64,000 nt of DNA from Escherichia coli (GCF_044324875.1 NZ_CP172185.1); one strand, 5' to 3'. Numbered from the stretch's first letter, positions 3,371 through 21,826 are shown. The notes: generated from the sequence alone by a model not told the origin. Numbers and translations: made by a program.

Positions 3371-3736
3371 ATGATTGATGTCTTAGGGCCGGAGAAACGC
3401 AGACGGCGTACCACACAGGAAAAGATCGCAATTGTTCAGCAGAGCTTTGAACCGGGGATGACGGTCTCCCTCGTTGCCCGGCAACATGGTGTAGCAGCCA
3501 GCCAGTTATTTCTCTGGCGTAAGCAATACCAGGAAGGAAGTCTTACTGCTGTCGCCGCCGGAGAACAGGTTGTTCCTGCCTCTGAACTTGCTGCCGCCAT
3601 GAAGCAGATTAAAGAACTCCAGCGCCTGCTCGGCAAGAAAACGATGGAAAATGAACTCCTCAAAGAAGCCGTTGAATATGGACGGGCAAAAAAGTGGATA
3701 GCGCACGCGCCCTTATTGCCCGGGGATGGGGAGTAA
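3371..3736 (+). CDS. insC: IS2 transposase OrfA (InsC)
   Basis: 121-aa product [41 protein letters not shown]... matches IS2 InsC. Confidence 0.9.
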
Positions 3737-4599
3737 GCTTAGTCAGCCGTTGTCTCCGGGTCTCACGTGCGCAACTGCATGCCATGGCCCGTCGGTCGAA
3801 GGACTGGCAGGATCGTCGGTGCAAGCGCAAGCCTGATGATACTGACGCGCTGGCCCGTATCCATACCGTTATCGGCGATCTGCCCACCTATGGTTATCGT
3901 CGGGTATGGGCACTGCTGCGCAGACAATCAGAAACTGACGACATGGCGGTGATCAATGCCAAACGCGTATACCGCATCATGCGTCAGAATGCGCTGCTGC
4001 TTGAGCGTAAACCGGAAATACCGCCATCGAAGCGGGCGCATACAGGGAAAGTGGCCGTTGGAGAAAGTAACCAGCGGTGGTGCTCTGACGGCTTCGAGTT
4101 CAGCTGTGATAACGGTGAAAAACTGCGGGTCACGTTCGCTCTGGACTGTTGCGATCGCGAGGCACTTTACTGGGCGGCCAGTAACGGTGGATATGACAGT
4201 GAAACCGTGCAGGACGTCATGCTGGGTGCCGTGGAGCGTCGTTTCGGTAACAGCCTGCCGACATCCCCAGTTGAGTGGCTGACAGACAACGGTTCAGCCT
4301 ACCGTTCTTATCAGACGCGTCAGTTCGCCAGAATGGTAGGACTGGAGCCTAAACATACGGCGGTACGTAGCCCGGAAAGCAACGGGATGGCAGAGAGCTT
4401 CGTGAAAACGATGAAGCGCGATTACATCAGCATCATGCCGAAACCCGACGGGTTAACAGCGGTAAAGAACCTTGCGGAGGCCTTCGAACATTACAACGAA
4501 TGGCATCCGCATAGTGCACTGGGGTATCGTTCGCCACGGGAATATCTGCGGCGGCGAACCAGTAATGGGTTAAGTGATAAAAAGTGTATGGAAATATAG
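3694..4599 (+). CDS. insD: IS2 transposase OrfB (InsD), DDE integrase core
   Basis: 301-aa ORF overlapping insC in a different frame (programmed frameshift arrangement); sequence matches IS2 InsD. Confidence 0.9.
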
Positions 4600-4610
4600 G
4601 GGCCAATCCA

Positions 4611-4967
4611 ATTGCACTGTTTCGAGGCTATCCGGCGACGATAAGAACTGACCAGGGGCCGGAGTTCACTTGCCGTGCACTGGATCAATGGGCCTTTGAG
4701 CATGGTGTTGAGTTGCGCTTAATCCAGCCGGGCAAGCCAACGCAGAACGGATTTATTGAGAGCTTTAACGGACGATTTCGCGATGAATGTTTGAATGAGC
4801 TCTGGTTCAGCGATATCGTTCATGCCAGGAAAATTATTAATGACTGGCGGCAGGATTATAACGAATGCCGCCCGCACTCCACGCTGAATTATCAGACACT
4901 GTCTGAATTTGCAGCGGGCTGGAGAAAGGGTCATTCTGAGAATGAAGATTCCGACGTTACTAACTGA
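4611..4967 (+). pseudogene. C-terminal remnant of an IS3-family transposase (OrfB), 5' part absent or replaced by IS2
   Basis: Frame continuing from the IS2 right end encodes ...[58 protein letters not shown]...RPHSTLNY, the conserved C-terminal part of an IS3-family DDE transposase. Confidence 0.7.
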
Positions 4968-4980
4968 GTGTTGTATCTAA

Positions 4981-5646
4981 TCGTGGGGGCAGGTCACAGC
5001 TATACGGACACGGTCAAATAGAGCACTTGCTATAACTGATCTTAAACATCCTAAATTTGATGTTAGAGTTCAGATACATAGTTCTGCCGCAAGGTATGCA
5101 GATAAGTTAGCTGCTGAAATAGTTTCAGCATATTATGATAACTCTGAGCTGGCATATGAAAGCGATTCTCCGTTTCAATTTGGTGTTATTCGAGTTCCTC
5201 GTAACGCTACTCACTTTGAGCATTCATTATATGAAAAGTACTCAGGACTTAATAAGTTCGAGGCTCCTTTTGCTGAGGCTTTAGATAGGTCTGGTTACCC
5301 TTGGCACAGAAACCTGAGCAGTGGCGGTTTTCATATCCCACTATTGACAGAGGGTGATACAAGCTCATTTTATCCAGACTTTTTAGTATGGAAGTCAGAC
5401 CTTGTCTATTGCCTTGATACCAAGGGGGGCCATCTATTGACTGCTGCCGTAGCGCGCAAGCTTTTTAATATTCATGAAGATGGTCGGAGTAAGATTCTAG
5501 TGAGATTTATCACAGAAGGAAAGCAGACAGAGCTGCGCGGCAAAGCAACAAAGGGAGGATATACTGTATGGAAAATGAAATCTGGGCATCCTACCCCAAT
5601 TTATGTGGCGGATTTAGACAAAGCTGTTAGGGAATGTCTAAAATAG
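4981..5646 (+). pseudogene. 3' fragment of a gene of unknown function with a PD-(D/E)xK-like motif; no in-frame start for its first ~120 codons
   Basis: Frame is open from the stop at 4978..4980 to 5646 but has no ATG/GTG/TTG until 5344; translation contains YPDFLVWKSDLVYCLDTKG (PD...DxK spacing typical of restriction-endonuclease-fold nucleases). Lies immediately after the IS3-family remnant. Confidence 0.4.
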
Positions 5647-5787
5647 CGAAGCCATAGCATAGAATTTTTAATGGCATTATGATCAGGACATAAAGGACTT
5701 CATGCAGGGAAAAAATATCCCAAAAGAAACTGGTCATGTCAGCACACCAAAGGATCCTCGCCGGATCCTTTGGTTTTTCTCAGCCAC

Positions 5788-5830
5788 AATCGCTTAACGT
5801 GAGTTTTCGTTCCACTGAGCGTCAGACCCC
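5788..5830. other. 43-bp segment nearly identical to the region just upstream of the ColE1/pMB1-type replication origin RNAs
   Basis: AATCGCTTAACGTGAGTTTTCGTTCCACTGAGCGTCAGACCCC differs at one position from the pBR322/pUC sequence AATCCCTTAACGTGAGTTTTCGTTCCACTGAGCGTCAGACCCC as I recall it; flanks diverge. Confidence 0.4.
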
Positions 5831-5905
5831 TATAAACACCTTAGTGAAGTCATCCTCGCAGGTAAGGCAACACATCCGTAAGGTATTTGGCCAAATCAAA
5901 TACAA

Positions 5906-6901
5906 CTAGATTGACTCGCGGGGAAGCCAGGGACTCTCAACTATCACTTTATCCCGGTGGGTGTCACCATTGATAATGTGCAGTGTACTTAAGCGCCCAA
6001 TTTCATAATGCGGTAGCTGGACCGTGGATAATGGGGGTAAAAATAAGTTTCCAATGCCTACAAGATTGTCATAGCCAAGAACGGCAATATCCTGTGGGAT
6101 TCTGATACCCTGCGTTAACAATGTTTGATACACCATAAATGCAATACGATCGTTACCACAGATGACCGAATCAAATCGCGGTTTCCCCTGTTCGATATGC
6201 GCCAGCAACATCTCCGGAATATCTCGGTAGTGCTCATCGCCGAATTGCATATAGCAGTGCTCAAGCGTATCAGGATCGATACTGGCTTCCCTGCAGGCGC
6301 GATCAAGCCCACGACGACGACGACGCGTCGCCAGATGGTTGACGGGTAAATGCAGGCATAGAGGGCGGCTGTATCCTGCTGCCAGCAGTGCCTGTACGGC
6401 CGTATACTGGCCATGTTCATCGTCAGGTATATAGCTGGCAACCGGCTCTCCCTTGTTCTCGCAGTTGGCCAGAACGCAAGGAAGCTCCAGTAACCGGGGA
6501 GGAATACTGACTTCACGCAGCCCCATGGTAGTAAAAATGATCCCCCCGGGTCGATGGGCGAGCAGCAGGTCGACAATATCGTCAGGATTATCATCGGTAA
6601 ACATATTCACCACAAAGCTGTTCCAGCCATACGCCCGCGCGGTTTCTTCAATAGACAGCGTGATTTCTACTGAAAAAGGAGTGGTGACCGTATCCAGCGC
6701 AAGCACACCAATCGTTTTGTTCCGGGTGCCAACACGACGAATCTGCTGGGCAGAAAGGTCTGGCACATAATTTAACTGCGTGATCGCCTCCTGCACCCGA
6801 GCCAGAGTCTCAGGCTTTACGCGTTTCGGGTCATTCAGCACCCGTGAAACCGTCATGAGCGATACATTGGCCAGTTTGGCCACATCCTTTAAAGACGCCA
6901 T
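5906..6901 (-). CDS. fosR: LacI/GalR-family repressor, CscR-like (FosR-like), divergent from the transporter operon
   Basis: 331 aa; N-terminal HTH MASLKDVAKLANVSLMTVSRVLN; strong similarity across its length to the E. coli sucrose repressor CscR from memory; gene symbol by recalled synteny with the fos locus. Confidence 0.75.
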   Translation of the reverse strand: MASLKDVAKLANVSLMTVSRVLNDPKRVKPETLARVQEAITQLNYVPDLSAQQIRRVGTRNKTIGVLALDTVTTPFSVEITLSIEETARAYGWNSFVVNMFTDDNPDDIVDLLLAHRPGGIIFTTMGLREVSIPPRLLELPCVLANCENKGEPVASYIPDDEHGQYTAVQALLAAGYSRPLCLHLPVNHLATRRRRRGLDRACREASIDPDTLEHCYMQFGDEHYRDIPEMLLAHIEQGKPRFDSVICGNDRIAFMVYQTLLTQGIRIPQDIAVLGYDNLVGIGNLFLPPLSTVQLPHYEIGRLSTLHIINGDTHRDKVIVESPWLPRESI

Positions 6902-7033
6902 AGTTTTCCATTATCTGAATGCATACACCCGGTAAGGTGTTGTGAGCAAATGCGAATGCCCTATTCTAGGCACGGACACCCAGGGTTATGCAGACCACTC
7001 TGATAAATTTGAGCTAGATCTCAACATTTCAAT

Positions 7034-7045
7034 GTTAACGTTAAC
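7034..7045. promoter_or_regulatory. Candidate LacI-family operator, perfect 12-bp palindrome centred on CG
   Basis: GTTAACGTTAAC is its own reverse complement; about 100 bp upstream of the transporter start, in the divergent fosR/fosT intergenic region. Confidence 0.4.
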
Positions 7046-7095
7046 TTTTGTGATTAACATCGACAAACAAATCAAAATCGAGTGTCCCCCCAAAA

Positions 7096-7109
7096 TGATA
7101 ACGTTACCA
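7096..7109. promoter_or_regulatory. Candidate LacI-family operator (TGATAACGTTACCA)
   Basis: Near-palindrome fitting the TGnAAnCGnTTnCA pattern of LacI/GalR operators; about 35 bp upstream of the transporter ATG at 7142. Confidence 0.4.
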
Positions 7110-7141
7110 TATTAGCATATCCTTCTTACGAGATTACGTAG

Positions 7142-8380
7142 ATGAAAAAACGGCCTACTCGAAGTTACATGCTGCTCAGCGCTCTGCTGTTCTTTTTCTT
7201 TGTGACCTGGTCCTCATCAAGTTCACTGCTCTCAATCTGGCTTCACCAGGAAGTGGGGCTAAAAGCATCGGAAACCGGCATTATTTTTTCAGTATTATCC
7301 GTCTCCGCGCTCTTCGCGCAGGTCTGTTATGGCTTTATTCAGGACCGACTTGGTCTGCGCAAACATTTGTTATGGTTTATCACCGCGTTGTTGATCCTCT
7401 CCGGCCCGGCTTATCTGCTTTTTAGTTATTTGCTGAGCGTTAATATTCTGCTGGGCAGCGTATTCGGGGGCTTATTTATCGGGCTGACGTTTAATGGGGG
7501 TATCGGCGTTCTGGAGTCCTATACCGAGCGCGTCGCGCGTCAAAGTACCTTTGAGTTTGGGCGGGCACGCATGTGGGGGTCTCTGGGCTGGGCAGTTGCC
7601 ACGTTTTTTGCCGGGTTACTGTTTAATATCAACCCTGACCTTAACTTCCTGGTGGCTTCATGCTCAGGGTTAATCTTCTTCTGCCTCCTGGCCCGATTAA
7701 AGGTGGCCGCGCCGGCAAGCATGGAGAAACTCGAAATTGGCGCTAAAAAAGTTTCTCTGGAAGACGCCCTGCGTCTGCTTACTCTGCCGCGCTTCTGGGC
7801 ACTGATATTCTTCGTGGTCGGAACCTGCATTTACGGCGTATACGATCAGCAATTCCCGGTCTATTTCTCATCACAGTTCCCGACATTACGCGAAGGGAAC
7901 GAGATGTTTGGCTATTTAAACTCTTTCCAGGTCTTTCTCGAGGCCGCAGGTATGTTTTGTGCGCCGTGGCTGGTTAATCGCATTGGTGCTAAAAATGGTC
8001 TGATATTCGCAGGAATGGTGATGGCGCTGCGCATGATTACTTCAGGGCTGGTGGAAGGCCCCCTGCTTATCTCCATTACCAAACTGCTTCACGCGGTCGA
8101 ACTGCCAATATTGTTAGTCGCCATATTTAAATACAACAGTCTGAATTTCGACAAACGTCTCTCCTCCACCATTTATCTGGTGGGATTTGCCTGCACCAGC
8201 TCCGTCATTGGTACCGTATTGTCCCCGCTGGCAGGCTTTAGCTATGAGAGATTTGGCTTCGCCCAATCCTATCTGATCATGGGCATCATGGTGTTCAGCA
8301 CCACGTTTATTTCCATTTTCCTTTTGCGCTCAACTAAATCCTCATCTGAGCCATCTTTTCTGCAGCAAAAAGCTGTGTAA
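7142..8380 (+). CDS. fosT: Oligosaccharide:H+ symporter, MFS (LacY/CscB-like)
   Basis: 412 aa, 12-TM hydrophobic profile, similar to CscB sucrose permease (…FQVFLEA…, …KLLHAVELP…); first gene of a tightly spaced operon. Confidence 0.8.
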   Translation: MKKRPTRSYMLLSALLFFFFVTWSSSSSLLSIWLHQEVGLKASETGIIFSVLSVSALFAQVCYGFIQDRLGLRKHLLWFITALLILSGPAYLLFSYLLSVNILLGSVFGGLFIGLTFNGGIGVLESYTERVARQSTFEFGRARMWGSLGWAVATFFAGLLFNINPDLNFLVASCSGLIFFCLLARLKVAAPASMEKLEIGAKKVSLEDALRLLTLPRFWALIFFVVGTCIYGVYDQQFPVYFSSQFPTLREGNEMFGYLNSFQVFLEAAGMFCAPWLVNRIGAKNGLIFAGMVMALRMITSGLVEGPLLISITKLLHAVELPILLVAIFKYNSLNFDKRLSSTIYLVGFACTSSVIGTVLSPLAGFSYERFGFAQSYLIMGIMVFSTTFISIFLLRSTKSSSEPSFLQQKAV

Positions 8381-8399
8381 TGTACTGAGAATAAAGACG

Positions 8400-9833
8400 A
8401 TGACATCCTTATTAGAACAGGCTGAACAGGTGCTTGAAAAAGCACAATCCGGGATTAATCCGCGCTGGTATCCGCGCTATCACCTCGCCCCTCGCGCAGG
8501 CTGGATGAATGATCCTAATGGCCTGGTATGGTTTGACGGCTGGTATCACGCCTTTTATCAACACCATCCCTACTCCCCGAAATGGGGTCCGATGCACTGG
8601 GGGCACGCCCGAAGCAAAGATCTGGTGCATTGGGAACATTTGCCCGTCGCGCTAGCGCCGGAAGGCCCGGCGGACAAAGACGGCTGTTTCTCAGGTTCCG
8701 CCGTGGTGGACGGCGATACGCTGGCGCTCATCTATACCGGACATAAATTTCACGGCCCGTCGGACACTGACGACAACCTCTACCAGGTGCAGTGTCTGGC
8801 GACCAGTCGTGACGGCATCCATTTTGAACGGCACGGCAAGGTGATTGATACACCGCCCGGACTGCATCACTTTCGCGATCCGAAGGTGTGGCGCGAAGGT
8901 GAGTTCTGGTACATGGTTGTCGGTTCCCGCGTGGAAAATACCGGTCAGGTGCGCCTGTACCGTTCCACCGATCTCCGCGAATGGCATGACGAAGGTATTT
9001 TCGCCGAGGCTGATGAAGGCAAGGGCTTTATGTGGGAATGCCCGGATTTCTTCCCCCTGGGAGAGAAGCGTGTCCTGATGTTCTCGCCGCAGGGCATGGC
9101 GGCGGAAGGGTATCACTATCGCAACCTGTTCCAGAGCGGTTATTTACTTGGGGACTGGCAGCCAGGTCAACCGTTCACCCACAGCGGACAATTTACTGAG
9201 CTGGACCACGGCCACGACTTTTATGCCCCGCAGAGTTTCCTGACCCCGGATGGCCGACGCATTGTCATCGGGTGGCTGGATATGTGGGAATCATCGATGC
9301 CCGAACAGCAGGATGGCTGGGCCGGAATGCTCTCGCTTCCTCGCGAATTAAGCCTTGTCGATGGTCGTGTGAGAATGAAACCTGCTGCCGAAGTGACCGC
9401 GCTGCGTGGCAGCTATTATCCCACGCCCGTCCGCTGTCTGAACAATCAGAACGTCCTTGTCGCGGCAAATGCCGACGCGGTCGAAGTTCAGTTGGCATGG
9501 GATTTGAGCGCATCGACGGCTGAACAGTTTGGTATCGCGTTGGGCGACGGGTTGAGAATTTACGTCGATGATCAGGCTGGGCGTCTGGTGGTGGAGCGCC
9601 GCTATCCGGAATATTCGCTGGAAGGCACTCGCAGTATTCCGCTTCCAGCAGACAGCGTTCTGTCACTGCGAATTTTTATTGACCGCTCATCGGTGGAAGT
9701 TTTTGTTAACGATGGTGACGCTTGCTTAAGCAGTCGTATTTATCCGCAGCCGGGCGAGCGTGATATTTCATTGTTTGCAAATCTGGGGAAGGCCTCATTA
9801 TACGATGCGGGATACTGGTCTTTAGATAAATAA
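8400..9833 (+). CDS. fosGH1: GH32 beta-fructofuranosidase / sucrose-6-phosphate hydrolase-like, no signal peptide (cytoplasmic)
   Basis: 477 aa with GH32 motifs WMNDPNGL, FRDPKV and WECPD; 19 bp after fosT. Confidence 0.8.
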   Translation: MTSLLEQAEQVLEKAQSGINPRWYPRYHLAPRAGWMNDPNGLVWFDGWYHAFYQHHPYSPKWGPMHWGHARSKDLVHWEHLPVALAPEGPADKDGCFSGSAVVDGDTLALIYTGHKFHGPSDTDDNLYQVQCLATSRDGIHFERHGKVIDTPPGLHHFRDPKVWREGEFWYMVVGSRVENTGQVRLYRSTDLREWHDEGIFAEADEGKGFMWECPDFFPLGEKRVLMFSPQGMAAEGYHYRNLFQSGYLLGDWQPGQPFTHSGQFTELDHGHDFYAPQSFLTPDGRRIVIGWLDMWESSMPEQQDGWAGMLSLPRELSLVDGRVRMKPAAEVTALRGSYYPTPVRCLNNQNVLVAANADAVEVQLAWDLSASTAEQFGIALGDGLRIYVDDQAGRLVVERRYPEYSLEGTRSIPLPADSVLSLRIFIDRSSVEVFVNDGDACLSSRIYPQPGERDISLFANLGKASLYDAGYWSLDK

Positions 9834-9925
9834 TTCTCCGTTCCGACCTGTTTCTTGCAGGGTGAGTTTTTATTTCTGCCAGTCTCTGGCTGGCATGTTA
9901 TTGTCTGGAATAATGAGAGAGCAAA

Positions 9926-11191
9926 ATGGATGAAAGCGTAATACCTCAAAATTGCATTACCTCGAAAGATAAAAATATATTTGTTCCAGGAAAACAGATG
10001 CTGGCATTAATGGTGACATTAGCAGCATTTCCTGCCATTGCTGAAGACGTTACAGGAAACTATCAAAGCTATTTTCAGGATGAATCAGACACCAACGGTA
10101 CGAGTGTTTCATTAGCCAATCAAGGCAATGAAAAATCATCCCTTAGCGCTTCATCTTCTCCGGTTGCTGCAGGTCAAAAACCTGAACTCACGACCTCGTC
10201 AAAGCCAGTGACGTTATCGGCACCAATGGAGAATAAGAAAACTGCAGTAGAAAAACGTCCTAAAGGGGATAACCCTAAAGATGTCAGTCTGTTGCGTTTA
10301 AGGCAGGAAGATCCGCCGGTTCACTGGAACAGTATTGGTCGTAACATGGAAGTGGGTAGCTTGCATGGGAACATTGGATCTCAGATAGAAATTGACGATG
10401 TTCGCTGGAGCAATAATAAGAAAAACAGCGGCAAGTTTAAACTCGCCACCATTCAGGCTTTTTTAAGGCACGATGAATTGCCTAACTGGTATTTCGGTTT
10501 CTGGAATGCCAGAGAAGACAGTTATAAAGGACAGTTCAGTAATCAGGACTATAAAGGCACCAATACCATCAATGAATTTTTTGTGGGCCATATTTTCGAA
10601 ACCTGGCGGGGTAATATCGGTACGGAAGTCATGGTCGGCTCCGAAACGGCAACTAAACGCTGGAAAAACCGGTTCAAAGTCTGGCAGGACCTGCGACTGT
10701 CCAACAAATGGAGCCTGGCCGGATACGCGTATGGCGAGTATCAGCCTCAGGGGAACGAACCGGGGAATGGCGATCTGGAGCAGTACATTTTCGAAATTGA
10801 GCCAGCCATTCAATACCGCGTGAATCCGGATCTCGGACTCTATTTGCGGCCCTATTATTACCATAACCGCCAGGAGCGTCAGAGCTGGGGCGACATTGTA
10901 GAAGAAGAATGGAAAGTCACGGCCGGGCTCTGGCGAAACTGGTATCCATTATTAACCTCCCTGTATGTTGGATTTGGCCAGGACAAAATAGATAACGCCA
11001 GCAATGCCAGCGAAGTTTTCTATGACGGCCGTTATAAGTTTATCGGTGGAACGCTGAGTTATCCGGTATTTGGTGAGGTGCGATTATATGGTGAATTCAA
11101 GGCACAATTTACGAAAGAAACCGGACTTTGGACATCAACCGGTCACTCATGGAATCCGTTTACCGTGGTTGGCGTGAATTATAACTTCTGA
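9926..11191 (+). CDS. fosX: Predicted outer-membrane beta-barrel protein (putative oligosaccharide channel); start probably internal near 9995
   Basis: Signal-peptide-like MLALMVTLAAFPAIA, Ser/Thr-rich linker, alternating-hydrophobic beta-strand pattern, C-terminal ...VGVNYNF with terminal Phe; paralogous to the ORF at 12712..13725. Confidence 0.6.
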   Translation: MDESVIPQNCITSKDKNIFVPGKQMLALMVTLAAFPAIAEDVTGNYQSYFQDESDTNGTSVSLANQGNEKSSLSASSSPVAAGQKPELTTSSKPVTLSAPMENKKTAVEKRPKGDNPKDVSLLRLRQEDPPVHWNSIGRNMEVGSLHGNIGSQIEIDDVRWSNNKKNSGKFKLATIQAFLRHDELPNWYFGFWNAREDSYKGQFSNQDYKGTNTINEFFVGHIFETWRGNIGTEVMVGSETATKRWKNRFKVWQDLRLSNKWSLAGYAYGEYQPQGNEPGNGDLEQYIFEIEPAIQYRVNPDLGLYLRPYYYHNRQERQSWGDIVEEEWKVTAGLWRNWYPLLTSLYVGFGQDKIDNASNASEVFYDGRYKFIGGTLSYPVFGEVRLYGEFKAQFTKETGLWTSTGHSWNPFTVVGVNYNF

Positions 11192-11205
11192 TATTCAGGT
11201 GTAGC

Positions 11206-12699
11206 ATGAAAAAATTAATAGTTGCGGCATCTTTCGCTCTGCTTGCGCTTTCGCTCGGCAATAACCCTGCCTGGTCACAGCCTTCGAAAGAGACATTACA
11301 GAATAAAAGCATCACCCATATTAATGGCTTTTTTCCGAGGGTTGAAGGTTCATTCGTGGGCGACCCTATGCCCGTTTTTAACGATGGCAAATTTGATATT
11401 TATTATCTTAATGATGTCCGAGGCGGCAGCGATCTGGGGGTACATGCTTTTCATCTCTTGTCGAGTGCCAACTTGTATGATTATCAGAACCATTCGGAAG
11501 TGATCCCCTACGTTAACGACGTTGACGATCCTGAACTGTTATTGGGAACCGGTTCGATTATTAAAGTCGGCGATACCTGGCATGCCTGGTACACCGCACA
11601 CAATGAAAATGTGTTCCCGGTTGAGTCTGTTATGCACGCGACCAGTAAGGACCGCCTTCACTGGGTGAAACACCCGCAGGACACCCTGTTACCCGGCGGT
11701 AACTATCGGGGTAATGATTTCAGGGACCCTCACGTCGTTTGGGTTGAGGAAAAGAAAGAATACTGGATGTTAATTACTACGCGCAGTAATGGTCGTGGGG
11801 TTATTGCCCGATACAGTTCAACGGATTTAAAGCACTGGGAAGATCGCGGCGTATTTTTTGATAACGACACCATCACCAGCAATGCCAACCTCGAATGCCC
11901 GACACTGGTTTACTTCAACGGACGCTGGTATCTCAGCTTTAGCGACCAATGGCCGTTACGCCTGACACAATACCGGGTTGCGGACAATCCGGAGGGGCCG
12001 TGGCGGAAACTGGACAATTATGTGGTCGACGGCTCAGGTTTTTACGCGGGTAAACTGGTTCTCAAAAACGATCGGCTGTTTGTTTTCGGCTGGATCCCGA
12101 CGAAAGCCGGTAACCGTGACAGCGGCAACATTGATTGGGCAGGGAATCTGGTTGCTCATGAGCTCACCGCAGATGCCCAGGGCCAGCTCAACAGCATCCT
12201 CCCCCAGGAGCTTCAGAAGGTCATCAGTGAGAATCCTGGCCCGGAAACCACCTTGACGAGCACTAAGACACTCAAAACGGACACGTCGTTCGGCCCCTTA
12301 CAGTCGGCGCTGTACCCGGCCTTGCCTGAGCGCGGTGAGTTGAGTGCAACCATCGATGTTCCTTCTGCCGGAATGGTGATGAGCTTTGGTCTGACCGACG
12401 ACAGAGTCAGTGATGCGATGCTGAACGTTGTGTTCAATAAGAGCAAAGGAAAAGTCTATTTTTTCAACGCGCCGCTAGCGTCGATTCATCAGGCTAACGC
12501 GGAATCCTGGGTGGACATTCCGATCGGGGAAAAAATTGAGTTACGCGTTCTCATACAAAACTCAATTGCTGTCTTTTATATAAACAACAAAGTGGCATTC
12601 AGTACCCGGATGTATTCCATGCAGGAGAAACCGTGGAGTATTAGCCTGCCTCAAAACGACCATTTTCACGCGACGTTGAAAATAAAAGAAATGATTTAA
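11206..12699 (+). CDS. fosGH2: GH32 beta-fructofuranosidase (levanase/inulinase-like) with N-terminal signal peptide (exported)
   Basis: 497 aa; signal peptide MKKLIVAASFALLALSLGNNPAWSQP; GH32 catalytic motifs (FRDPHV, ECP); 14 bp after the preceding gene. Confidence 0.8.
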   Translation: MKKLIVAASFALLALSLGNNPAWSQPSKETLQNKSITHINGFFPRVEGSFVGDPMPVFNDGKFDIYYLNDVRGGSDLGVHAFHLLSSANLYDYQNHSEVIPYVNDVDDPELLLGTGSIIKVGDTWHAWYTAHNENVFPVESVMHATSKDRLHWVKHPQDTLLPGGNYRGNDFRDPHVVWVEEKKEYWMLITTRSNGRGVIARYSSTDLKHWEDRGVFFDNDTITSNANLECPTLVYFNGRWYLSFSDQWPLRLTQYRVADNPEGPWRKLDNYVVDGSGFYAGKLVLKNDRLFVFGWIPTKAGNRDSGNIDWAGNLVAHELTADAQGQLNSILPQELQKVISENPGPETTLTSTKTLKTDTSFGPLQSALYPALPERGELSATIDVPSAGMVMSFGLTDDRVSDAMLNVVFNKSKGKVYFFNAPLASIHQANAESWVDIPIGEKIELRVLIQNSIAVFYINNKVAFSTRMYSMQEKPWSISLPQNDHFHATLKIKEMI

Positions 12700-12711
12700 C
12701 GGGATATTATT

Positions 12712-13725
12712 ATGAAAAACTATCATGCCCTGTCTGTTATTTTTACTCTTATGTTACCCGCGCTGGCGAATGCGAGCATGAGCATCATGAAGGATCCGTC
12801 TGGAAAGGTTATCGCCGTGGACCCTTGGTCATATCTTGATGAAGATGTTATGTGGACCTCAGCCCGCTCCTCCAATCCTGCCGGTGGCCGCGTTCATGGC
12901 CAACTGAAAATGAAATATGCCATTGAGGATAATAACTGGCGTAACAGCCATTTCCACAACGGGAATGATTCGCTGACGTTTGTACAAGGTGTGATGCGGC
13001 ACGATGCGTTACCCGGTTGGTATCTGGCTTTCTCTGAGGGCAGAACCACTAACTATAACGGGACGTGGGAGGATCAGTCTTACCTCAGCCAAAACCAGTG
13101 GACTCAGTTGATCATCGGCCATGAATATTTTTACAAGCGTCTGCGCTATGGCTGGGATGTGATGGGAGGAAGCGCCTCAATCGAAGACCGCTGGCAAGGC
13201 CGCGTTAAGTTCTTTACCGATCTTCGGGTTACGGATAATTTCTCATTCTTTAACTACCTGTATCAGCAGATCGATCACCGGCGCAGCGGTGGGTCGCAAA
13301 ACGACCGTGACGTGCGTTCATTTCAGATTGAGCCAGGCGTGCAATACATTATTAATAACAACACCGGTGTCTGGTTCCGCCAGCAGTTCGCATCTGCCAT
13401 TTTAGACAGGGCGCAGTGGGGCGATATCGACGAAAAAAGCTGGACCACGTCAGTCGGCGTCTGGCGAAACTGGGGGAAGTTATCCACAACGCTCAGCGGC
13501 GGTTATGGTCATTATAAGAAATACAATGCGCAACCTGAGGATGGCGAAGTCTTTCAGAATACCCGCAATCGCTTCCTGAAGGTATCGGCAAATTATCCTT
13601 TGACCTCTCGTTTTACCGTGTCCGGAGAAGTTACTGGTTCGTTGATCAAACAGAACGGAAGTTGGGTCACTAACGGTGAGGCCATTACCACTGAGTATAA
13701 GCTGATGCTGGATTATAACTTTTAA
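12712..13725 (+). CDS. fosY: Predicted outer-membrane beta-barrel protein, paralogue of fosX
   Basis: 337 aa; signal peptide MKNYHALSVIFTLMLPALANA; shared motifs with the 9926 ORF (HDxLPxWY, WGDIxExxWxxxxGxWRNW); C-terminal ...LMLDYNF. Confidence 0.6.
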   Translation: MKNYHALSVIFTLMLPALANASMSIMKDPSGKVIAVDPWSYLDEDVMWTSARSSNPAGGRVHGQLKMKYAIEDNNWRNSHFHNGNDSLTFVQGVMRHDALPGWYLAFSEGRTTNYNGTWEDQSYLSQNQWTQLIIGHEYFYKRLRYGWDVMGGSASIEDRWQGRVKFFTDLRVTDNFSFFNYLYQQIDHRRSGGSQNDRDVRSFQIEPGVQYIINNNTGVWFRQQFASAILDRAQWGDIDEKSWTTSVGVWRNWGKLSTTLSGGYGHYKKYNAQPEDGEVFQNTRNRFLKVSANYPLTSRFTVSGEVTGSLIKQNGSWVTNGEAITTEYKLMLDYNF

Positions 13726-13838
13726 ACCGTACGCTGGATAATCCATGCCACCTGAACACGCTGAAGCGTTAGTAAAAATAGTGACCTTACCGCAGGTCAC
13801 GTTTAAAAAAACAAGTTAATTATTATTAAGGAAATATC

Positions 13839-14801
13839 ATGAATATCTGGACTCTTGGCGATGCTGTTGTTGATCTTCTACCCCTTACAGATATGCAATT
13901 TCGTGCTTGTGCAGGAGGTGCGCCATTTAATGTTGCGATAGGTACTGCACAATTGAAATGTCGTACCGGCTTTATAGGTCGCGTAGGGGATGACGATTTT
14001 GGCCATTTCCTGAGAAAAACTCTCGAAGATTCAGGAGTTTCTACACAATGTATCCAAATGGATAAATATCATCGTACAAGTACAGTACTGGTTTCTCTTA
14101 AAGATCAGGGAGAACGTGGTTTTACATTTCTTACGAACCCTTCAGCCGACCAATTTCTAACACAAGATGCCCTTCCAGCTTTTAGTGATGATATCCTGCA
14201 TTTTTGTTCACTTGCGCTGGTTGCTGCAGATTGCCGCACGACTTTGACTAAAGCAGTCCAGGAAGTCATTGACCACGGTGGACTTATCAGCTTTGATGTT
14301 AATTTACGAGACCAAATGTGGCGTGATAAGGAAGAAATGTTTGCGACAGTGAGTCAATTCGCTGAAAAAGCCGATATCCTTAAACTCTCTGAAGAAGAGT
14401 GGTACTGGTTAATGGGTACACATGATTATACAGAGGCGTTAGAAGCACTCAAAACCCATCCTGCCAGATTAAAAGTGGTCACCTTTGGTGCGAGAGGTTC
14501 ATTGGTATTATGGCAAGATATGGTGATACATTTCAGAGGATTTAATGTTAAAAGTATTGACACAACAGGCGCTGGAGATGCTTTTATGGCTGGGTTACTT
14601 GCCAGCATCGCCAATAAAGGTTTGCCAATGAATTTTCCAGAACTTCAATTAGCAATCACTCAGGCCAGTGCCACCGGAGCGCTCGCAACTACCAAAAAAG
14701 GTGCACTTACCGCCCTTCCTGATACAGCCGCACTGGAAACGTTCATTAATCATTTTCCATTACCGGGCTATGAGATCCTTGGAGCAACCGCTACGGTGTA
14801 A
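13839..14801 (+). CDS. fosK: Fructokinase, PfkB/ribokinase family (CscK-like)
   Basis: 320 aa; N-terminal GD motif (MNIWTLGDAVVDLL) and C-terminal TTGAGDAF anion-hole motif; visibly more AT-rich than upstream genes. Confidence 0.8.
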   Translation: MNIWTLGDAVVDLLPLTDMQFRACAGGAPFNVAIGTAQLKCRTGFIGRVGDDDFGHFLRKTLEDSGVSTQCIQMDKYHRTSTVLVSLKDQGERGFTFLTNPSADQFLTQDALPAFSDDILHFCSLALVAADCRTTLTKAVQEVIDHGGLISFDVNLRDQMWRDKEEMFATVSQFAEKADILKLSEEEWYWLMGTHDYTEALEALKTHPARLKVVTFGARGSLVLWQDMVIHFRGFNVKSIDTTGAGDAFMAGLLASIANKGLPMNFPELQLAITQASATGALATTKKGALTALPDTAALETFINHFPLPGYEILGATATV

Positions 14802-15454: not shown

Positions 15455-17026
15455 TTACTGAGAGCTCAGATCAACTTTCCAGGGCAACAGATCGCGTACC
15501 CGGTTTGCCGGCCAGTCCTGGATATGTTCAATGACGTAACGCAGCCACTTTTCTGGCTCCACATTGTTCAGACGGCATGTGCCGATCAGCGAGTACAACA
15601 CCGCCGCATGTTCACCACCGCTGTCGGAACCCGCGAACATCCAGTTTTTCCGGCCTACGGCCACTCCCCGTAAGGCGTTCTCTGCGATGTTGTTGTCGAT
15701 TTCCACCCAGCCATTACTGCAGTACACGTTCAGTGCATCCCACTGTTTCAGCAGGTATGCGAACGCTTTTGCCGTATCTGAGTGACGCGACAGTGTTTTC
15801 ATCTGTTGCTGTATCCAGTCATACAGTGACTGCATCAGTGGCGCGGCTCTGGCTTTTCTTGCCGCCAGACGCTGTTCTGCTGAACAGCCCCGGACCTCTG
15901 CCTCGATGGCATACAGTTCACCGATACGCTGCAGGGCTTCCGTGGTGATGTAGGTGGGCGCTCTTGCATGCACATCGTGGATTTTTCTCCGGGCATGAGC
16001 CATACACGCGGCTTCCGTTATTCTGCCGGATTCGTATAACGCCCGGTAACCACCGTAAGCATCGGCCTGAAGCACACCGCTGTAACCGGCCAGGTGATTT
16101 TGTGGATGGATACCTTTCCGGTCCGGACTGTACGCGAACCAGACCGCCGGGGGCATCTGTGAACCGGCGTTACGGTCATCACGGACGTAGACCCACAGCC
16201 GGGCTGTCCGGGTTTTACCGCTGCCCGGCTCCTGGACCGGGACGGGGATATCATCAGCATGGACTTTACCGGGCATCAGCACATACTGGCGCAGGACGTC
16301 ATACAGCGGCTCCAGCAGTTCAGCAACAGCACCTGTCCAGCGCCCCAGTGTGGCACGGCTCAGCTCCACTCCCTGACGACGGTATATTTCTGACTGGCGG
16401 TATAACGGCAGATGGTCTGCATATTTCCCGGTGACAACATGGGCCAGAAGCCCCGCTCCGGCATAACTGCGTGCAATGGGTTTTGAAGGTACTGGTGCCT
16501 GCACGATATGGTCGCACCGGCAACAGGCCTGTTTCGGACGTTGTGTTTCGATAACCTTAAAGGCGCTGCTGATAAGCTCCAGTTGCTCTGACACATCACA
16601 TCCCAGAGAACTGAGTTCACCACCACAGGCAGGACAGCATTCCTCTTCCGGCCGGATAACCCGGGTTTCACGGGGAAGTGAGGCCGGTAACGGTTTACGG
16701 GCTGAAGACTGGCGCAGGGCGGATGGCAGTACCGGGTCATATTGCTCACCCAGCGTTTCCGCCATTTCTTCCTGAAGTGCGCTGATTCGCTCCTGTGCTT
16801 CCTGTATCTGCCGTTCGGTTTTTGCACGAAGTTTTTCTGAGCTTTTACCGAACTGCATACGTTGCAGTTTCGCAACCAGCGCCTTCAGCCGGTTGATTTC
16901 GGAAGCATAAGCCGCCACCCGCTGTGAGAGCAGGCGGTTGTATTCAGCCATCTGGCGGATGGTGTCCTGTTGCGTCTGCAACAGTGCCCGCAGGCGGGCG
17001 TTCTCATGAGCAAGTGAGGTGTCCAT
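15455..17026 (-). CDS. tnpC: IS66-family transposase TnpC
   Basis: 523 aa with N-terminal coiled-coil/leucine-zipper region, CxxC zinc motif and DDE core typical of IS66 transposases. Confidence 0.85.
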
Positions 17027-17045
17027 ATCCTCACTTTACAACGGG

Positions 17046-17393
17046 TTATATGCGGATTCCAGCGCGTTCCGTTCGTTTCGGGTGCTTCCAGTTGATACCT
17101 TCAAGAAGCATGGATAACTGAGCCGGAGTAAGGTGCACCTTGCCGTCACGGGTGACTGGCCAGACGAAGCGGCCCCGCTCCAGGCGTTTGGTGAAGAGGC
17201 ACAGTCCGTCACTGTCAGCCCACAACACTTTTATCTGGTCACCCCGGCGTCCGCGGAAGATGAACAGGTGTCCGGAGAACGGGTCATCCTTCAGGACGTT
17301 CTGAACTTTTGATGCCAGGCCGTTAAAGCCATTTCGCATATCGGTGATACCTGCAACCAGCCAGATACGCGAACCTGCAGGGAGAGATATCAT
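17046..17393 (-). CDS. tnpB: IS66-family Orf2 (TnpB)
   Basis: 115 aa; MISLPAGSRIWLVAGITDMRNGFNGL... is the conserved IS66 Orf2. Confidence 0.85.
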   Translation of the reverse strand: MISLPAGSRIWLVAGITDMRNGFNGLASKVQNVLKDDPFSGHLFIFRGRRGDQIKVLWADSDGLCLFTKRLERGRFVWPVTRDGKVHLTPAQLSMLLEGINWKHPKRTERAGIRI

Positions 17394-18070
17394 CAGTGGC
17401 TGCTCCCTTTTATTTCGCGGATAAGTGTCTGTAATAACGCCGGCGTCAGTTTACCTTTAAGCCTGAGAGTTCCGGCCGGCAGAACCAGCTCACAACACAG
17501 ACTGTCGGACGGTGTATTTATCTGCTCTGGTTCCTGTGCGGGGGCCGGGATTTTATTATCCGGCTCCGGCGTTAACGTCACGGGAAGCAGTGCCGGCATA
17601 TTTTTTCCGGAAGGCAGCAGGCCACCTTTCCGGTATTGATGGCGCCAGTTGAAGAGCAGGTTATCGTTGATTCCGTTTTCCCGGGCGATCTGCGCCACAC
17701 AGGCTCCGGGCTGCAGTGACTGCTCCACTAAGGCGATTTTAAACTCATAAGGGAAGTTGGGCCGCCGGGGACGTTTTTTTACCACGGGGGCTTCGGATAT
17801 AACGGTGCTTTCAGGACGTACGACTGGTACCGTGGAAAATTGTCCGTAAAGGCAGGCATCAAGTTCCTGCTCCGACATGCCTGCGGGCAAAGGCCACGAA
17901 AGGCCAGCTCTCCGAAAGCGCACGAACATACTACAAACTGTTGATTTTGGTACACCCAGGCGACGCCCGGCCACAACCCGGGGTAAATGTTCTTCAAAGT
18001 GAAGACGTAAAGCTTCAGTGATCCAGGTCCGGTGTTTCATACGATAGTGTCCATTAAAAATGATGGACAT
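17393..18070 (-). CDS. tnpA: IS66-family accessory protein (TnpA); true start uncertain, probably internal
   Basis: ORF immediately upstream of and overlapping tnpB (ATGA overlap) in the canonical IS66 arrangement. Confidence 0.6.
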   Translation of the reverse strand: MSIIFNGHYRMKHRTWITEALRLHFEEHLPRVVAGRRLGVPKSTVCSMFVRFRRAGLSWPLPAGMSEQELDACLYGQFSTVPVVRPESTVISEAPVVKKRPRRPNFPYEFKIALVEQSLQPGACVAQIARENGINDNLLFNWRHQYRKGGLLPSGKNMPALLPVTLTPEPDNKIPAPAQEPEQINTPSDSLCCELVLPAGTLRLKGKLTPALLQTLIREIKGSSH

Positions 18071-18140
18071 TATTTTTGTAGAGCCGGAGGAAACAGACCA
18101 GACGGTTTAAATGAGCCGGTTACGATTTTAAGGTGCTTGC

Positions 18141-18416
18141 GTGGCTTCCATTTCCATCAGATGTCCTTCCTGCTCCGCTACTGAAGGCGTGGTGCGTAAC
18201 GGCAAAAGCACTGCCGGACATCAGCGCTATCTCTGCTCTCATTGCCGTAAAACATGGCAACTACAGTTCACTTACACCGCCTCTCAGCCCGGTACGCACC
18301 AGAAAATCATTGATATGGCCATGAATAGCGTCGGATGTCGCGCCAGTGCACGCATTATGGGCGTTGGCCTCAACACGGTTTTACGTCACTTAAAAAACTC
18401 AGGCCGCAGTCGGTAA
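18141..18416 (+). CDS. insA: IS1 InsA
   Basis: 91 aa, [43 protein letters not shown]... matches IS1 InsA. Confidence 0.9.
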
Positions 18417-18790
18417 CCTCGCGCATACAACCGGGCAGTGATGTGATTGTCTGCGCTGAAATGGACGAACAGTGGGGCTACGTCGGTGCTAAATCACGTC
18501 AGCGCTGGCTGTTTTACGCGTATGACAGGATACGGAGGACGGTTGTGGCGCACGTCTTCGGTGAACGCACTCTGGCCACACTGGAGCGTCTTCTGAGCCT
18601 GCTGTCGGCCTTTGAGGTCGTGGTATGGATGACGGATGGCTGGCCGCTGTATGAATCACGCCTGAAGGGAAAGCTGCACGTTATCAGCAAGCGTTACACT
18701 CAGCGCATTGAGCGACATAATCTGAATCTGAGATCTGGCAAGGCTGGGACGGAAGTCACTGTCGTTCTCAAAATCGGTGGAGCTGCATGA
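18335..18790 (+). CDS. insB: IS1 insB' frame (expressed as InsAB' transposase by -1 frameshift)
   Basis: Overlaps insA in another frame; translation matches IS1 InsB. Confidence 0.85.
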
Positions 18791-21818: not shown

Positions 21819-21826
21819 ATACTCCC

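What the first reader, a model, noticed from the sequence alone, without database searches (positions are those of the whole stretch)
9926..13725. Two paralogous predicted outer-membrane beta-barrel proteins interleaved with the GH32 genes
Both ORFs have N-terminal signal peptides, end in ...YNF (C-terminal Phe is the usual OMP signature), show alternating hydrophobic beta-strand patterns and share several motifs (HDxLPxWY, WGDI-E--W-----G-WRNW). Neither resembles LamB or ScrY in a way I can recognise, so they may be a distinct family of substrate-specific channels for short fructans. The first carries an extra Ser/Thr-rich N-terminal extension. As far as I recall these two genes were left without assigned function.
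Basis: inference. Interest (0 to 1): 0.6.

Follow-up and report, generated by a model that had tools for sequence, protein, structure and literature searches.

The report
Paired OmpG-like fructan porins, fos locus
Two related genes in the E. coli fructooligosaccharide (fos) operon, still called "unknown function" in the papers I could read, encode 14-stranded outer-membrane barrels of the OmpG/CymA type that most likely let fructan oligosaccharides into the periplasm; databases already label them OmpG-family porins, and I found no experimental test of them.

The parts
9926..11191 (+). fosX CDS (421 aa): the long paralogue, an OmpG/CymA-like 14-strand barrel with an N-terminal extension
9926..10042 (+). 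FosX signal peptide (residues 1-39: a 24-residue n-region, a hydrophobic core at 25-39, and an AIA|E cleavage site)
   Evidence: Read from the sequence. The MDE.. start is conserved in orthologues. No signal-peptide predictor was run.
10061..10075 (+). Conserved aromatic motif YQSYF (residues 46-50; wider consensus Y-x-G-x-Y-Q-S-Y-F-x-[DE])
   Evidence: Present in 20 of 23 FosX-type proteins from Enterobacterales, Orbaceae and Anaerobiospirillum, and absent in the Brenneria group. The motif region is 60% identical on average across orthologues, against 21% for the linker.
10085..10276 (+). Low-complexity, fast-evolving linker (residues 54-117)
   Evidence: AF2 pLDDT is below 50 for residues 1-143. 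The linker is 55-78% S/T/A/P/Q/N/G, and the motif-to-barrel spacing is 76-169 residues, typically 92-96. dN/dS for residues 1-117 is 0.23-0.62, against 0.02-0.06 in the barrel.
10277..10360 (+). FosX conserved pre-barrel segment (residues 118-145, ..VSLLRLRQEDPPVHWNSIGRNMEVGS)
   Evidence: Mean identity 68% across orthologues. It aligns with the FosY pre-barrel segment. AF2 confidence is low.
10361..11188 (+). FosX 14-strand beta-barrel (residues 146-421), ending in the C-terminal signal ..GVNYNF
   Evidence: AF2 places 14 strands at 146-420, with pLDDT about 90. dN/dS is 0.02-0.06.
11206..12699 (+). fosGH2 (FosE2): GH32 with a Sec signal peptide (..PAWS|Q), the partner enzyme always found between the two barrel genes
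   Evidence: Pfam GH32N plus GH32_BT1760-like_C. The closest solved relatives are BT1760 endo-levanase entries 6r3r/8a9y, E about 1e-45 (PMC6560043). Its position is conserved in all 26 distinct two-barrel loci.
12712..13725 (+). fosY CDS (337 aa): the short paralogue, an OmpG/CymA-like 14-strand barrel
12712..12774 (+). FosY signal peptide (residues 1-21, ANA|S)
   Evidence: Read from the sequence. No predictor was run.
12775..12891 (+). FosY pre-barrel segment (residues 22-60, SMSIMKDPSGKVIAVDPWSYLDEDVMWTSARSSNPAGG)
   Evidence: Mean identity is 79% across 21 orthologues, higher than the barrel's 73%. AF2 confidence is only 54-61.
12892..13722 (+). FosY 14-strand beta-barrel (residues 61-337), ending ..LDYNF
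   Evidence: AF2 strands run from 61-76 through 322-336. hhalign pairs FosY 61-337 with OmpG 27-301. dN/dS is 0.02-0.06.
5906..6901 (-). fosR, the LacI-family repressor (context)
   Evidence: NCBIfam LacI-family hits; PMC3325963.
7142..8380 (+). fosT, an oligosaccharide:H+ MFS symporter (context; inner-membrane step)
   Evidence: TIGR00882 'oligosaccharide MFS transporter', E=1.4e-125. A fosT deletion mutant cannot use scFOS (PMC3325963).
8400..9833 (+). fosGH1 (FosE1), a cytoplasmic ScrB/BfrA-like GH32 with no signal peptide (context)
   Evidence: TIGR01322, E=5.6e-143. PDB 7vco, E=2.5e-163. No hydrophobic N-terminus.
13839..14801 (+). fosK, fructokinase (context)
   Evidence: NF006957 fructokinase, E=2.4e-103, below the curated cut-off; PMC3325963.

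Best explanation
FosX and FosY are outer-membrane, probably monomeric, 14-stranded beta-barrel channels of the OmpG/CymA structural class. They are co-expressed with the fos operon. They let fructan oligosaccharides diffuse passively across the outer membrane. These include kestose, nystose and GF4 (504-828 Da) and probably longer chains, which are at or above the ~600 Da limit of general porins. In the periplasm the BT1760-like GH32 encoded between the two barrel genes shortens the chains. FosT then imports the products, the cytoplasmic ScrB-like GH32 hydrolyses them, and FosK phosphorylates the fructose. In this scheme FosX-FosGH2-FosY is the outer-membrane and periplasmic module and FosR-FosT-FosGH1-FosK is the inner module. 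This parallels LamB + MalS + MalFGK2, or CymA and the cym operon. What is shown here: paralogy, family membership, the predicted fold, remote homology to OmpG, gene linkage and purifying selection. What is inferred: localisation, channel activity, substrate, and the division of labour between the two paralogues.

For: Link to fructans. All 23 loci from 100,044 species genomes, plus three further distinct loci, keep the order FosX-GH32(signal peptide)-FosY, even where FosT, GH1 and FosK are absent or elsewhere. Distant members at 21-24% identity in Vibrio natriegens, V. variabilis and a metagenome also abut a GH32.

Selection. dN/dS is 0.02-0.06 for both barrels, as low as or lower than for the GH32.

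Physiology from the literature. The locus confers growth on scFOS made of kestose, nystose and GF4, and a fosT deletion abolishes it, so oligosaccharides rather than free monosaccharides must reach the inner membrane (PMC3325963). The locus works when moved to K-12 on RP4 (bioRxiv 10.64898/2026.02.25.707879). General porins pass solutes below ~600 Da, OmpG supports sugar uptake when LamB is missing, and OmpG and CymA are 14-stranded monomers (PMC3706956). CymA is a passive cyclodextrin channel (PMC11186346).
Against: There is no experimental evidence for localisation, pore formation or sugar passage. I found no fosX or fosY mutants in the library, and the original 2009 description could not be read. 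Specificity rests on gene context alone, and OmpG itself is a wide, non-specific pore. One family member (P0048, L025) lies next to an ABC transporter and a GDE_C/GH100-like hydrolase rather than a GH32. Nothing yet explains why two paralogues are always kept: a strand-parity analysis found no excess of X-versus-Y differences at positions assigned to the lumen. The partner GH32 resembles a cell-surface endo-levanase and carries a lipoprotein-type signal in some relatives, which leaves room for an enzyme-handling role. AF2 could not place the conserved pre-barrel segments, so the pores might be plugged or gated.
Confidence: 0.72

Rival explanations
1. FosX and FosY are wide, non-specific diffusion pores, as OmpG is. 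They are simply switched on with the fos operon to raise outer-membrane permeability, and have no fructan binding site or selectivity.
For: Whole-barrel remote homology and close structural similarity to OmpG. OmpG is itself encoded in a sugar-catabolic cluster (ycj), and a V. variabilis family member sits in a ycj-like locus with GH65, beta-PGM and ABC genes. One member is not next to a GH32.
Against: The family is coupled to GH32 genes very tightly: every context examined but one. Two diverged paralogues are retained under strong purifying selection, which is hard to explain for generic holes. The best structural match is the substrate-specific CymA. The pre-barrel segments are highly conserved.
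Confidence: 0.15
2. The barrels handle the enzyme rather than the substrate. One or both would translocate, anchor or display the BT1760-like GH32 at the outer membrane, as Slam/DUF560 14-strand barrels do for surface lipoproteins, so that polymeric fructan is cut outside the cell.
For: The GH32 always sits between the two barrel genes. It is closest to BT1760, a cell-surface endo-levanase (PMC6560043, PMC5245892). In the single-barrel loci of V. natriegens (L026) and a metagenome (L029), the adjacent GH32 has a lipobox (LAAC, TAAC). Slam/DUF560 barrels appear among AFDB structural neighbours at TM about 0.58-0.60.
Against: The E. coli GH32 has an ordinary signal peptide with no Cys. Slam-type similarity is weaker than that to OmpG (TM 0.67/0.74) and CymA, and only OmpG shows sequence-profile homology. 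No DUF560 or TPR match appeared in Pfam at E<=10, and the FosX N-terminus is predicted disordered rather than a TPR domain. A fosT deletion stops growth on scFOS, so the secreted GH32 does not simply release monosaccharides outside the cell. The locus works in K-12.
Confidence: 0.08
3. Only one paralogue is the working channel. The other, most likely FosX with its tether, would be a regulatory or scaffolding barrel, plugged or non-conducting, that positions the GH32 or gates its partner.
For: FosX alone carries a conserved terminal motif on a long disordered tether. Single-barrel loci exist in Vibrio, so one barrel is enough there. The FosX motif YQSYFQDE resembles the FosY pre-barrel core PWSYLDE.
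Against: Both barrels are equally constrained (dN/dS 0.02-0.06), and both are modelled as open 14-strand barrels with the same top structural matches. The short-motif resemblance could be chance. No interaction test was possible.
Confidence: 0.05

Closest known systems
CymA, the cyclodextrin channel of Klebsiella oxytoca (PDB 4d5b)
   Different: Only 10% identity in the structural alignment. No sequence-level link was tested, because no CymA sequence was available, and the Pfam scans returned no CymA-type family at E<=10. The Fos pre-barrel segments are longer (about 28-39 residues, plus a ~78-residue extension in FosX) and could not be placed by AF2. The substrate is different. The Fos genes come as an obligate pair.
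OmpG of E. coli (PF09381; PDB 2f1c)
   Different: It is a different Pfam family: OmpG matches PF09381 and not PF16946, and FosX/FosY match PF16946 and not PF09381. Neither phmmer nor an HMM of the Fos family finds OmpG in PDB even at E<=10. OmpG starts its first strand directly after the signal peptide and has no pre-barrel segment. OmpG is regarded as non-specific.
LamB / ScrY / RafY sugar porins
   Same: The same operon logic: a dedicated outer-membrane channel co-regulated with the enzymes and inner-membrane transporter for an oligosaccharide too large for general porins. ScrY also carries an N-terminal periplasmic extension that LamB lacks (my own knowledge, not tested here).
KdgM / NanC family
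   Same: Small monomeric oligosaccharide-specific channels encoded in catabolic loci.
Slam (DUF560) surface-lipoprotein translocators
   Same: 14-strand barrels, often encoded next to their lipoprotein substrates (my own knowledge). They are structural neighbours in AFDB at TM about 0.58-0.60. Some family members abut a GH32 with a lipobox.
   Different: No sequence match. FosX and FosY have no N-terminal TPR domain. The E. coli GH32 is not a lipoprotein. The similarity is weaker than to OmpG or CymA.
Bacteroides levan utilisome (SusCD BT1762-63 + BT1760 endo-levanase)
   Same: It couples a BT1760-type GH32 to an outer-membrane import barrel for fructan oligosaccharides. The Fos GH32 is homologous to BT1760 (E about 1e-45).
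   Different: SusC is a 22-strand TonB-dependent active transporter with a SusD lid, and its enzyme sits on the cell surface. Here the barrels are small passive-type pores, and the enzyme is predicted to be periplasmic.

Membership tests
Pfam PF16946 (Porin_OmpG_1_2; PGAP name 'OmpG porin family protein') | Full-length match to the family HMM | tested here: met
   FosX residues 118-421 cover model positions 2-294 of 294, E=4.7e-130. FosY residues 43-337 cover 1-294 of 294, E=9.5e-129. RefSeq uses this name.
OmpG proper (PF09381; 'OmpG family monomeric porin') | Match to the OmpG HMM, or direct sequence similarity to OmpG | tested here: not met
   Neither protein hits PF09381 at E<=10. E. coli OmpG hits PF09381 (E=5.6e-98) and not PF16946. 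phmmer and a family HMM against PDB sequences do not find OmpG.
OmpG proper (PF09381; 'OmpG family monomeric porin') | 14-stranded barrel homologous over its whole length | tested here: met
OmpG proper (PF09381; 'OmpG family monomeric porin') | Monomeric state and pH-dependent gating by an extracellular loop | not testable with these tools
   This needs biochemistry and electrophysiology.
CymA-type cyclodextrin channels | 14-strand monomeric barrel of the CymA fold | tested here: met
CymA-type cyclodextrin channels | N-terminal segment folded into the lumen as a mobile plug | tested here: inconclusive
   Conserved pre-barrel segments exist (FosY 22-60 at 79% identity, FosX 118-145 at 68%), but AF2 places them with pLDDT below 62.
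CymA-type cyclodextrin channels | Sequence homology to CymA | not tested
   No CymA sequence was available for a profile comparison. Structural-alignment identity is 10%. No other Pfam porin family scored at E<=10 apart from weak OMP_b-brl hits.
LamB/ScrY sugar porins | 18-strand trimeric barrel with loop L3 folded into the pore | tested here: not met
KdgM/NanC porins | 12-strand barrel and a KdgM-family HMM match | tested here: not met
Slam / DUF560 translocators | DUF560 barrel plus an N-terminal periplasmic TPR domain | tested here: not met
   No DUF560 or TPR Pfam hit. The FosX N-terminus is predicted disordered and FosY has only 39 pre-barrel residues. The only link is distant structural similarity.
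Gram-negative outer-membrane beta-barrel proteins (general) | Sec signal peptide, C-terminal aromatic beta-signal, no long hydrophobic helix, few Cys | tested here: met
   AxA cleavage sites..VNYNF and ..LDYNF termini, 1 and 0 Cys, 15-17% aromatic residues. The signal peptides are read by rule, not by a predictor.
Substrate-specific fructan channel (functional class) | Saturable, selective passage of fructan oligosaccharides | not testable with these tools
   Only genomic coupling to GH32 genes is available.

The most novel reading that the evidence does not exclude
FosX, FosGH2 and FosY form one physical outer-membrane and periplasmic fructan-harvesting unit. The conserved YQSYF peptide at the end of FosX's ~90-residue disordered tether would dock the BT1760-like GH32, or plug or gate the partner pore, whose pre-barrel core PWSYLDE it resembles. 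That would hold an endo-fructanase directly under the channels so that long fructan chains threading through are cut and ratcheted inward. This would be a passive, proteobacterial counterpart of the Bacteroides levan utilisome. In the single-barrel Vibrio-type loci the same job would be done by lipid-anchoring the enzyme.
Probability: 0.12. Interest if true: 0.7.

Novelty: new member of a known kind. Interest (0 to 1): 0.4.

Why it matters
The fos locus is a mobile colonisation trait. It lies on a selC-linked island in the window and occurs at >=99% identity on 43 plasmids, 37 of them conjugative, in Escherichia, Klebsiella, Salmonella and Kosakonia. It lets enterobacteria, including extra-intestinal pathogenic E. 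coli, consume prebiotic fructans (PMC3325963), and it is already being engineered into delivery plasmids as a selectable fitness module (bioRxiv 10.64898/2026.02.25.707879). The outer-membrane step of that pathway has never been assigned in the papers I could read. Assigning it to FosX and FosY completes the transport scheme. It also explains why the FosX-GH32-FosY triad moves as a unit, and it identifies the minimal gene set needed to transfer the trait. For porin biology, it would add a third, sequence-distinct branch of the OmpG/CymA class of 14-strand monomeric oligosaccharide channels. That branch would come with an obvious natural substrate and with unusual N-terminal modules that can be tested directly. 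Such monomeric wide pores are also of interest as nanopore sensors.

Tried and rejected
1. Direct sequence links to solved porins. phmmer with either protein, and an HMM of the family, against all PDB sequences found nothing relevant even at E<=10. Only profile-profile and structural comparison reach OmpG and CymA.

2. NCBIfam has no model for these proteins, so the PGAP name presumably derives from the Pfam model. That is an inference.

3. Literature searches for PF16946, 'OmpG porin family', or OmpG + GH32 + fructan + porin found no study of these proteins. The original 2009 description (PMC2612441) is not held, so I cannot exclude that it reports something on fosX or fosY.

4. Lumen versus lipid face. 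The assignment is weak for 5 of 14 strands. Positions assigned to the lumen are more often conserved (52/110 against 29/109), but X-versus-Y differences are not enriched there (21/52 against 11/29). This is inconclusive on why there are two paralogues.

5. Complementarity between a lipobox on the GH32 and the FosX tether motif. The single-barrel loci and two of the three motif-less Brenneria-type loci have a Cys at the GH32 cleavage site. But L016-L018 have both the motif and a possible LSSC lipobox, so the pattern is not clean.

6. The hairpin in the 92-nt spacer before fosX (9877-9895). Its folding energy is not unusual (z=-1.74), and the promoter and terminator scans are at background level, so there is no evidence for a separate transcription unit.

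7. P0046 (1,796 aa, Cys-rich repeats) from the exhaustive search is a spurious low-complexity match and was discarded.

8. The first attempt at a genome scan failed because the 18-sequence alignment had no conserved stretch. A 7-sequence alignment worked. Its patterns were centred on the RHDxLPxWY region, so very divergent members may have been missed in that scan.
Full report
WHAT IS THERE. Window 5906-14801 holds a divergent LacI-family regulator followed by six same-strand genes. These are an oligosaccharide:H+ MFS symporter (7142-8380), a ScrB-like GH32 without a signal peptide (8400-9833), ORF-A (9926-11191, 421 aa), a second GH32 with a signal peptide (11206-12699), ORF-B (12712-13725, 337 aa) and a fructokinase (13839-14801). 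The gaps between ORF-A, the GH32 and ORF-B are only 14 and 12 nt. The region is 100% identical to loci in complete E. coli genomes. It occurs in 52 of 5,426 of them, at 35 chromosomal and 18 plasmid places. It matches the published fos locus for short-chain fructooligosaccharide (scFOS) use in avian ExPEC strain BEN2908 (island AGI-3, GenBank AY857617), where ORF-A and ORF-B are FosX and FosY, 'two proteins of unknown function' (PMC3325963). A 2026 preprint that re-uses the locus still gives them no function. A tRNA-SeC gene at 27796-27890 fits a selC-associated island, and the AFDB entry for FosY is 'Aec42' of E. coli.

CHECK OF THE OBSERVATION. The two proteins are clear paralogues: 31% identity over 329 residues, E=1e-52. 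Both have N-terminal hydrophobic cores followed by AxA sites. I read these by rule and ran no signal-peptide predictor. FosX has an unusually long 24-residue n-region, but the MDE.. start is conserved in orthologues. Its extension is 26% Ser+Thr against 11% in the rest of the protein.

WHAT THEY ARE. Both proteins match Pfam PF16946 (Porin_OmpG_1_2) over the entire model at E about 1e-130, and RefSeq/PGAP names them 'OmpG porin family protein'. So they are not an unrecognised family. The gap is between the databases and the experimental literature.

The 'OmpG' label needs qualifying. Genuine OmpG and its homologues belong to a different Pfam family, PF09381, and do not match PF16946. FosX and FosY do not match PF09381. 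Neither single sequences nor a family HMM find OmpG or any other porin in PDB sequences. A profile-profile comparison does connect them: 94.7% probability, E=5.7e-8, 256 columns, pairing FosY 61-337 with OmpG 27-301, that is, first strand to terminal Phe (92.7% against the single OmpG sequence). They are therefore remote homologues of OmpG in a separate family.

HOW BIG AND HOW FOCUSED THE FAMILY IS. An exhaustive phmmer search of 1.84 billion cluster representatives found only 18 clusters at E<=0.001, one of them spurious. A scan of one genome for each of 100,044 species found 23 loci. They lie in Enterobacter, Citrobacter, Buttiauxella, Phytobacter, Hafnia, Pantoea, Kosakonia, Erwinia, Cedecea, Klebsiella, Lelliottia, Brenneria, Affinibrenneria and Anaerobiospirillum. 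Other members come from Orbaceae (insect gut) and from Vibrio natriegens and V. variabilis. All are Gammaproteobacteria.

In all 23 genome loci, and in three further distinct loci (Orbus wheelerorum, an Orbaceae metagenome contig and one unplaced contig), the order FosX-type, then signal-peptide GH32, then FosY-type is kept. This holds even in Brenneria, Affinibrenneria and Anaerobiospirillum, where FosT, the cytoplasmic GH32 and FosK are absent from the neighbourhood or relocated. Conversely, PMC3325963 describes Klebsiella loci with only FosR, FosT and FosE1, and some plasmids keep only the first 440 nt of fosX. The locus is thus built of two modules: an outer module (FosX-GH32-FosY) and an inner module (FosT, the cytoplasmic GH32 and FosK).

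The most distant members, at 21-24% identity, occur singly. Even so, they directly abut a FosGH2-like GH32 in V. natriegens and in a metagenome contig (with ABC transporter, LacI and a cytoplasmic GH32), or a GH32 within a GH65/beta-PGM/ABC locus in V. variabilis that recalls the E. coli ycj-ompG cluster. Only one member (P0048) lacks a GH32 neighbour. It sits with an ABC transporter and a GDE_C/GH100-like hydrolase.

SELECTION. Against ten orthologous loci, dN/dS is 0.02-0.06 for the FosX barrel and 0.02-0.06 for FosY, compared with 0.02-0.09 for the GH32 between them (saturated comparisons excluded). Both paralogues are therefore maintained as functional genes.

MOST LIKELY MECHANISM. scFOS are kestose, nystose and fructosyl-nystose (PMC3325963), with masses of 504-828 Da by my calculation. 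That is at or above the general-porin limit. A fosT deletion cannot use scFOS. This means the secreted GH32 does not simply turn the substrate into free fructose and glucose, which E. coli would take up by other routes (inference). Oligosaccharides must reach FosT.

The simplest scheme follows the established LamB + periplasmic MalS + MalFGK2 logic (textbook knowledge). FosX and FosY admit fructan oligosaccharides. The periplasmic GH32 shortens them. FosT imports the products. The ScrB-like GH32 (best PDB match 7vco, E=2.5e-163) hydrolyses them, and FosK phosphorylates the fructose.

One relevant twist concerns the enzyme between the barrels. It is closest (E about 1e-45, residues 37-480) to PDB 6r3r/6r3u and 7znr/8a9y/8aa0, and only weakly similar (E about 1e-7) to exo-acting beta-fructosidases. 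It also carries the GH32_BT1760-like C-terminal domain. Entry 6R3R is the BT1760 endo-levanase of Bacteroides thetaiotaomicron (PMC6560043). I believe the other entries are BT1760 mutants and the levan utilisome, but I did not verify that. So the natural substrates entering through FosX and FosY may be longer, or differently linked, than commercial scFOS. I put 0.72 on the channel explanation. Localisation, conductance and specificity all remain inferences.

RIVALS. (a) Non-specific OmpG-like pores that are merely co-expressed (0.15). This is favoured by the OmpG kinship and by the one non-GH32 context. It is disfavoured by the near-exclusive GH32 linkage and by the retention of two diverged paralogues. 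(b) Barrels that export, anchor or display the GH32 (0.08). The partner resembles a surface enzyme, it has a lipobox in the single-barrel loci (LAAC in L026, TAAC in L029), and Slam/DUF560 barrels appear as AFDB neighbours (TM about 0.58-0.60). Against this, the E. coli enzyme has a plain signal peptide, the proteins have no TPR or DUF560 signature, OmpG and CymA are closer, and the fosT deletion phenotype argues against extracellular release of monosaccharides. (c) Only one paralogue conducts and the other is a scaffold or gate (0.05).

UNEXPLAINED FEATURES. FosX-type proteins have a fixed architecture. After the signal peptide comes a conserved aromatic motif, Y-x-G-x-YQSYF-x-[DE], found in 20 of 23 proteins and absent in the Brenneria group. 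Next is a low-complexity linker whose sequence is not conserved (21% mean identity; dN/dS 0.23-0.62 for residues 1-117), while the spacing from motif to barrel is 76-169 residues, typically 92-96. Then come a conserved 28-residue pre-barrel segment and the barrel. FosY-type proteins have a 39-residue pre-barrel segment (SMSIMKDPSGKVIAVDPWSYLDEDVMWTSARSSNPAGG) that is more conserved than the barrel itself (79% against 73% mean identity over 21 orthologues). AF2 does not place it confidently. Single-barrel family members and OmpG lack such segments.

With an even number of strands, these segments must be periplasmic or inserted into the lumen from the periplasmic side. By analogy with the N-terminal plugs of CymA (PMC11186346) and VhChiP (PMC10406626 abstract), they may gate the pores. 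The long FosX tether could instead dock the GH32.

NOVELTY AND SCORE. The fold class, the Pfam family and the database name already exist, and the operon logic is classical. This is a new, functionally uncharacterised member of a known kind, the monomeric 14-strand oligosaccharide channels, rather than a new kind. What is new relative to the papers I could read is the assignment of FosX and FosY, the recognition that FosX-GH32-FosY is the conserved and mobile core, the near-exclusive coupling of this small family to GH32 enzymes, and the N-terminal modules. The triad occurs at >=99% identity on 43 plasmids, 37 of them conjugative. Interest is 0.4: useful and directly testable, but not surprising to a porin specialist.

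Noticed in passing
window 11206-12699 (+): The signal-peptide GH32 between the two barrel genes is closest to the Bacteroides thetaiotaomicron endo-levanase BT1760 (PDB 6r3r and related entries, E about 1e-45 over residues 37-480; it also has the Pfam GH32_BT1760-like C-terminal domain). It is only weakly similar to exo-acting beta-fructosidases. It may be an endo-fructanase, so the locus may target longer or beta-2,6-linked fructans as well as scFOS.
   Followed up: partly
window 12712-12816 (+): The UniProt/AFDB entry for FosY (Q5I3M1, 'Aec42') is 302 aa, 35 residues shorter than the ORF here and the RefSeq protein. That start would fall at Val36 and remove the signal peptide, which may have helped hide the protein's outer-membrane nature in the original annotation.
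   Followed up: partly
window 10061-10084 and 12823-12846 (+): The FosX tether motif (YQSYFQDE) resembles the most conserved core of the FosY pre-barrel segment (PWSYLDED). Both have the pattern aromatic-S-Y-[F/L]-(x)-D-E. The stretch is short enough for this to be chance.
   Followed up: no
L026:6282-7847, L029:3460-4968; also L021:6419-7927, L022:6401-7915, L016-L018: FosGH2-like GH32 enzymes next to single family barrels in Vibrio natriegens and a metagenome contig carry lipoprotein-type signals (..LAAC..TAAC). Two of the three Brenneria-type loci that lack the FosX motif also have a Cys at the cleavage site. But three loci with the motif (L016-L018) have a possible LSSC lipobox too, so lipid anchor and FosX tether are not cleanly complementary.
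   Followed up: partly
L036 (Vibrio variabilis BBMS01000004.1), around 3381-10320: A family member sits in a locus with GH65 phosphorylase, HAD/beta-PGM-like, ABC-transporter, GH32 and GH13 genes. The gene content recalls the E. coli ycj-ompG cluster (kojibiose phosphorylase, beta-phosphoglucomutase, ompG). Many genes in this assembly are fragmented.
   Followed up: no
window 15455-18790: An IS66-family element (three ORFs on the minus strand: 15455-17026, 17046-17393, 17393-18070) lies directly downstream of fosK, followed by IS1-like ORFs at 18141-18790. In E. coli O78 strain 3 an IS1 occupies the equivalent position and an IS3-family element lies upstream of fosR. The fos module is bracketed by insertion sequences, which fits its presence on 43 plasmids.
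   Followed up: partly
window 19431-24460 and 27796-27890: A GH31 glycosidase (19431-21818, minus strand), an MFS transporter (21827-23185, minus strand) and a LacI-type regulator ORF (23366-24460) form a second sugar-utilisation module between the fos locus and a tRNA-SeC gene (27796-27890, minus strand).
   Followed up: no
window 9834-9925 (+): The 92-nt spacer before fosX contains a G+C-rich hairpin (9877-9895) followed by a T-rich stretch. It was flagged by the terminator scan, but the folding energy of the spacer is not unusual (z=-1.74) and the scan as a whole is near background.
   Followed up: yes
plasmids NZ_OQ534118.1 and NZ_OQ534117.1 (hits H26, H27): Some E. coli plasmids retain only the first 440 nt of fosX. 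These are truncated loci that have lost the FosX-GH32-FosY module. They parallel the Klebsiella loci with only FosR, FosT and FosE1 described in PMC3325963.
   Followed up: no
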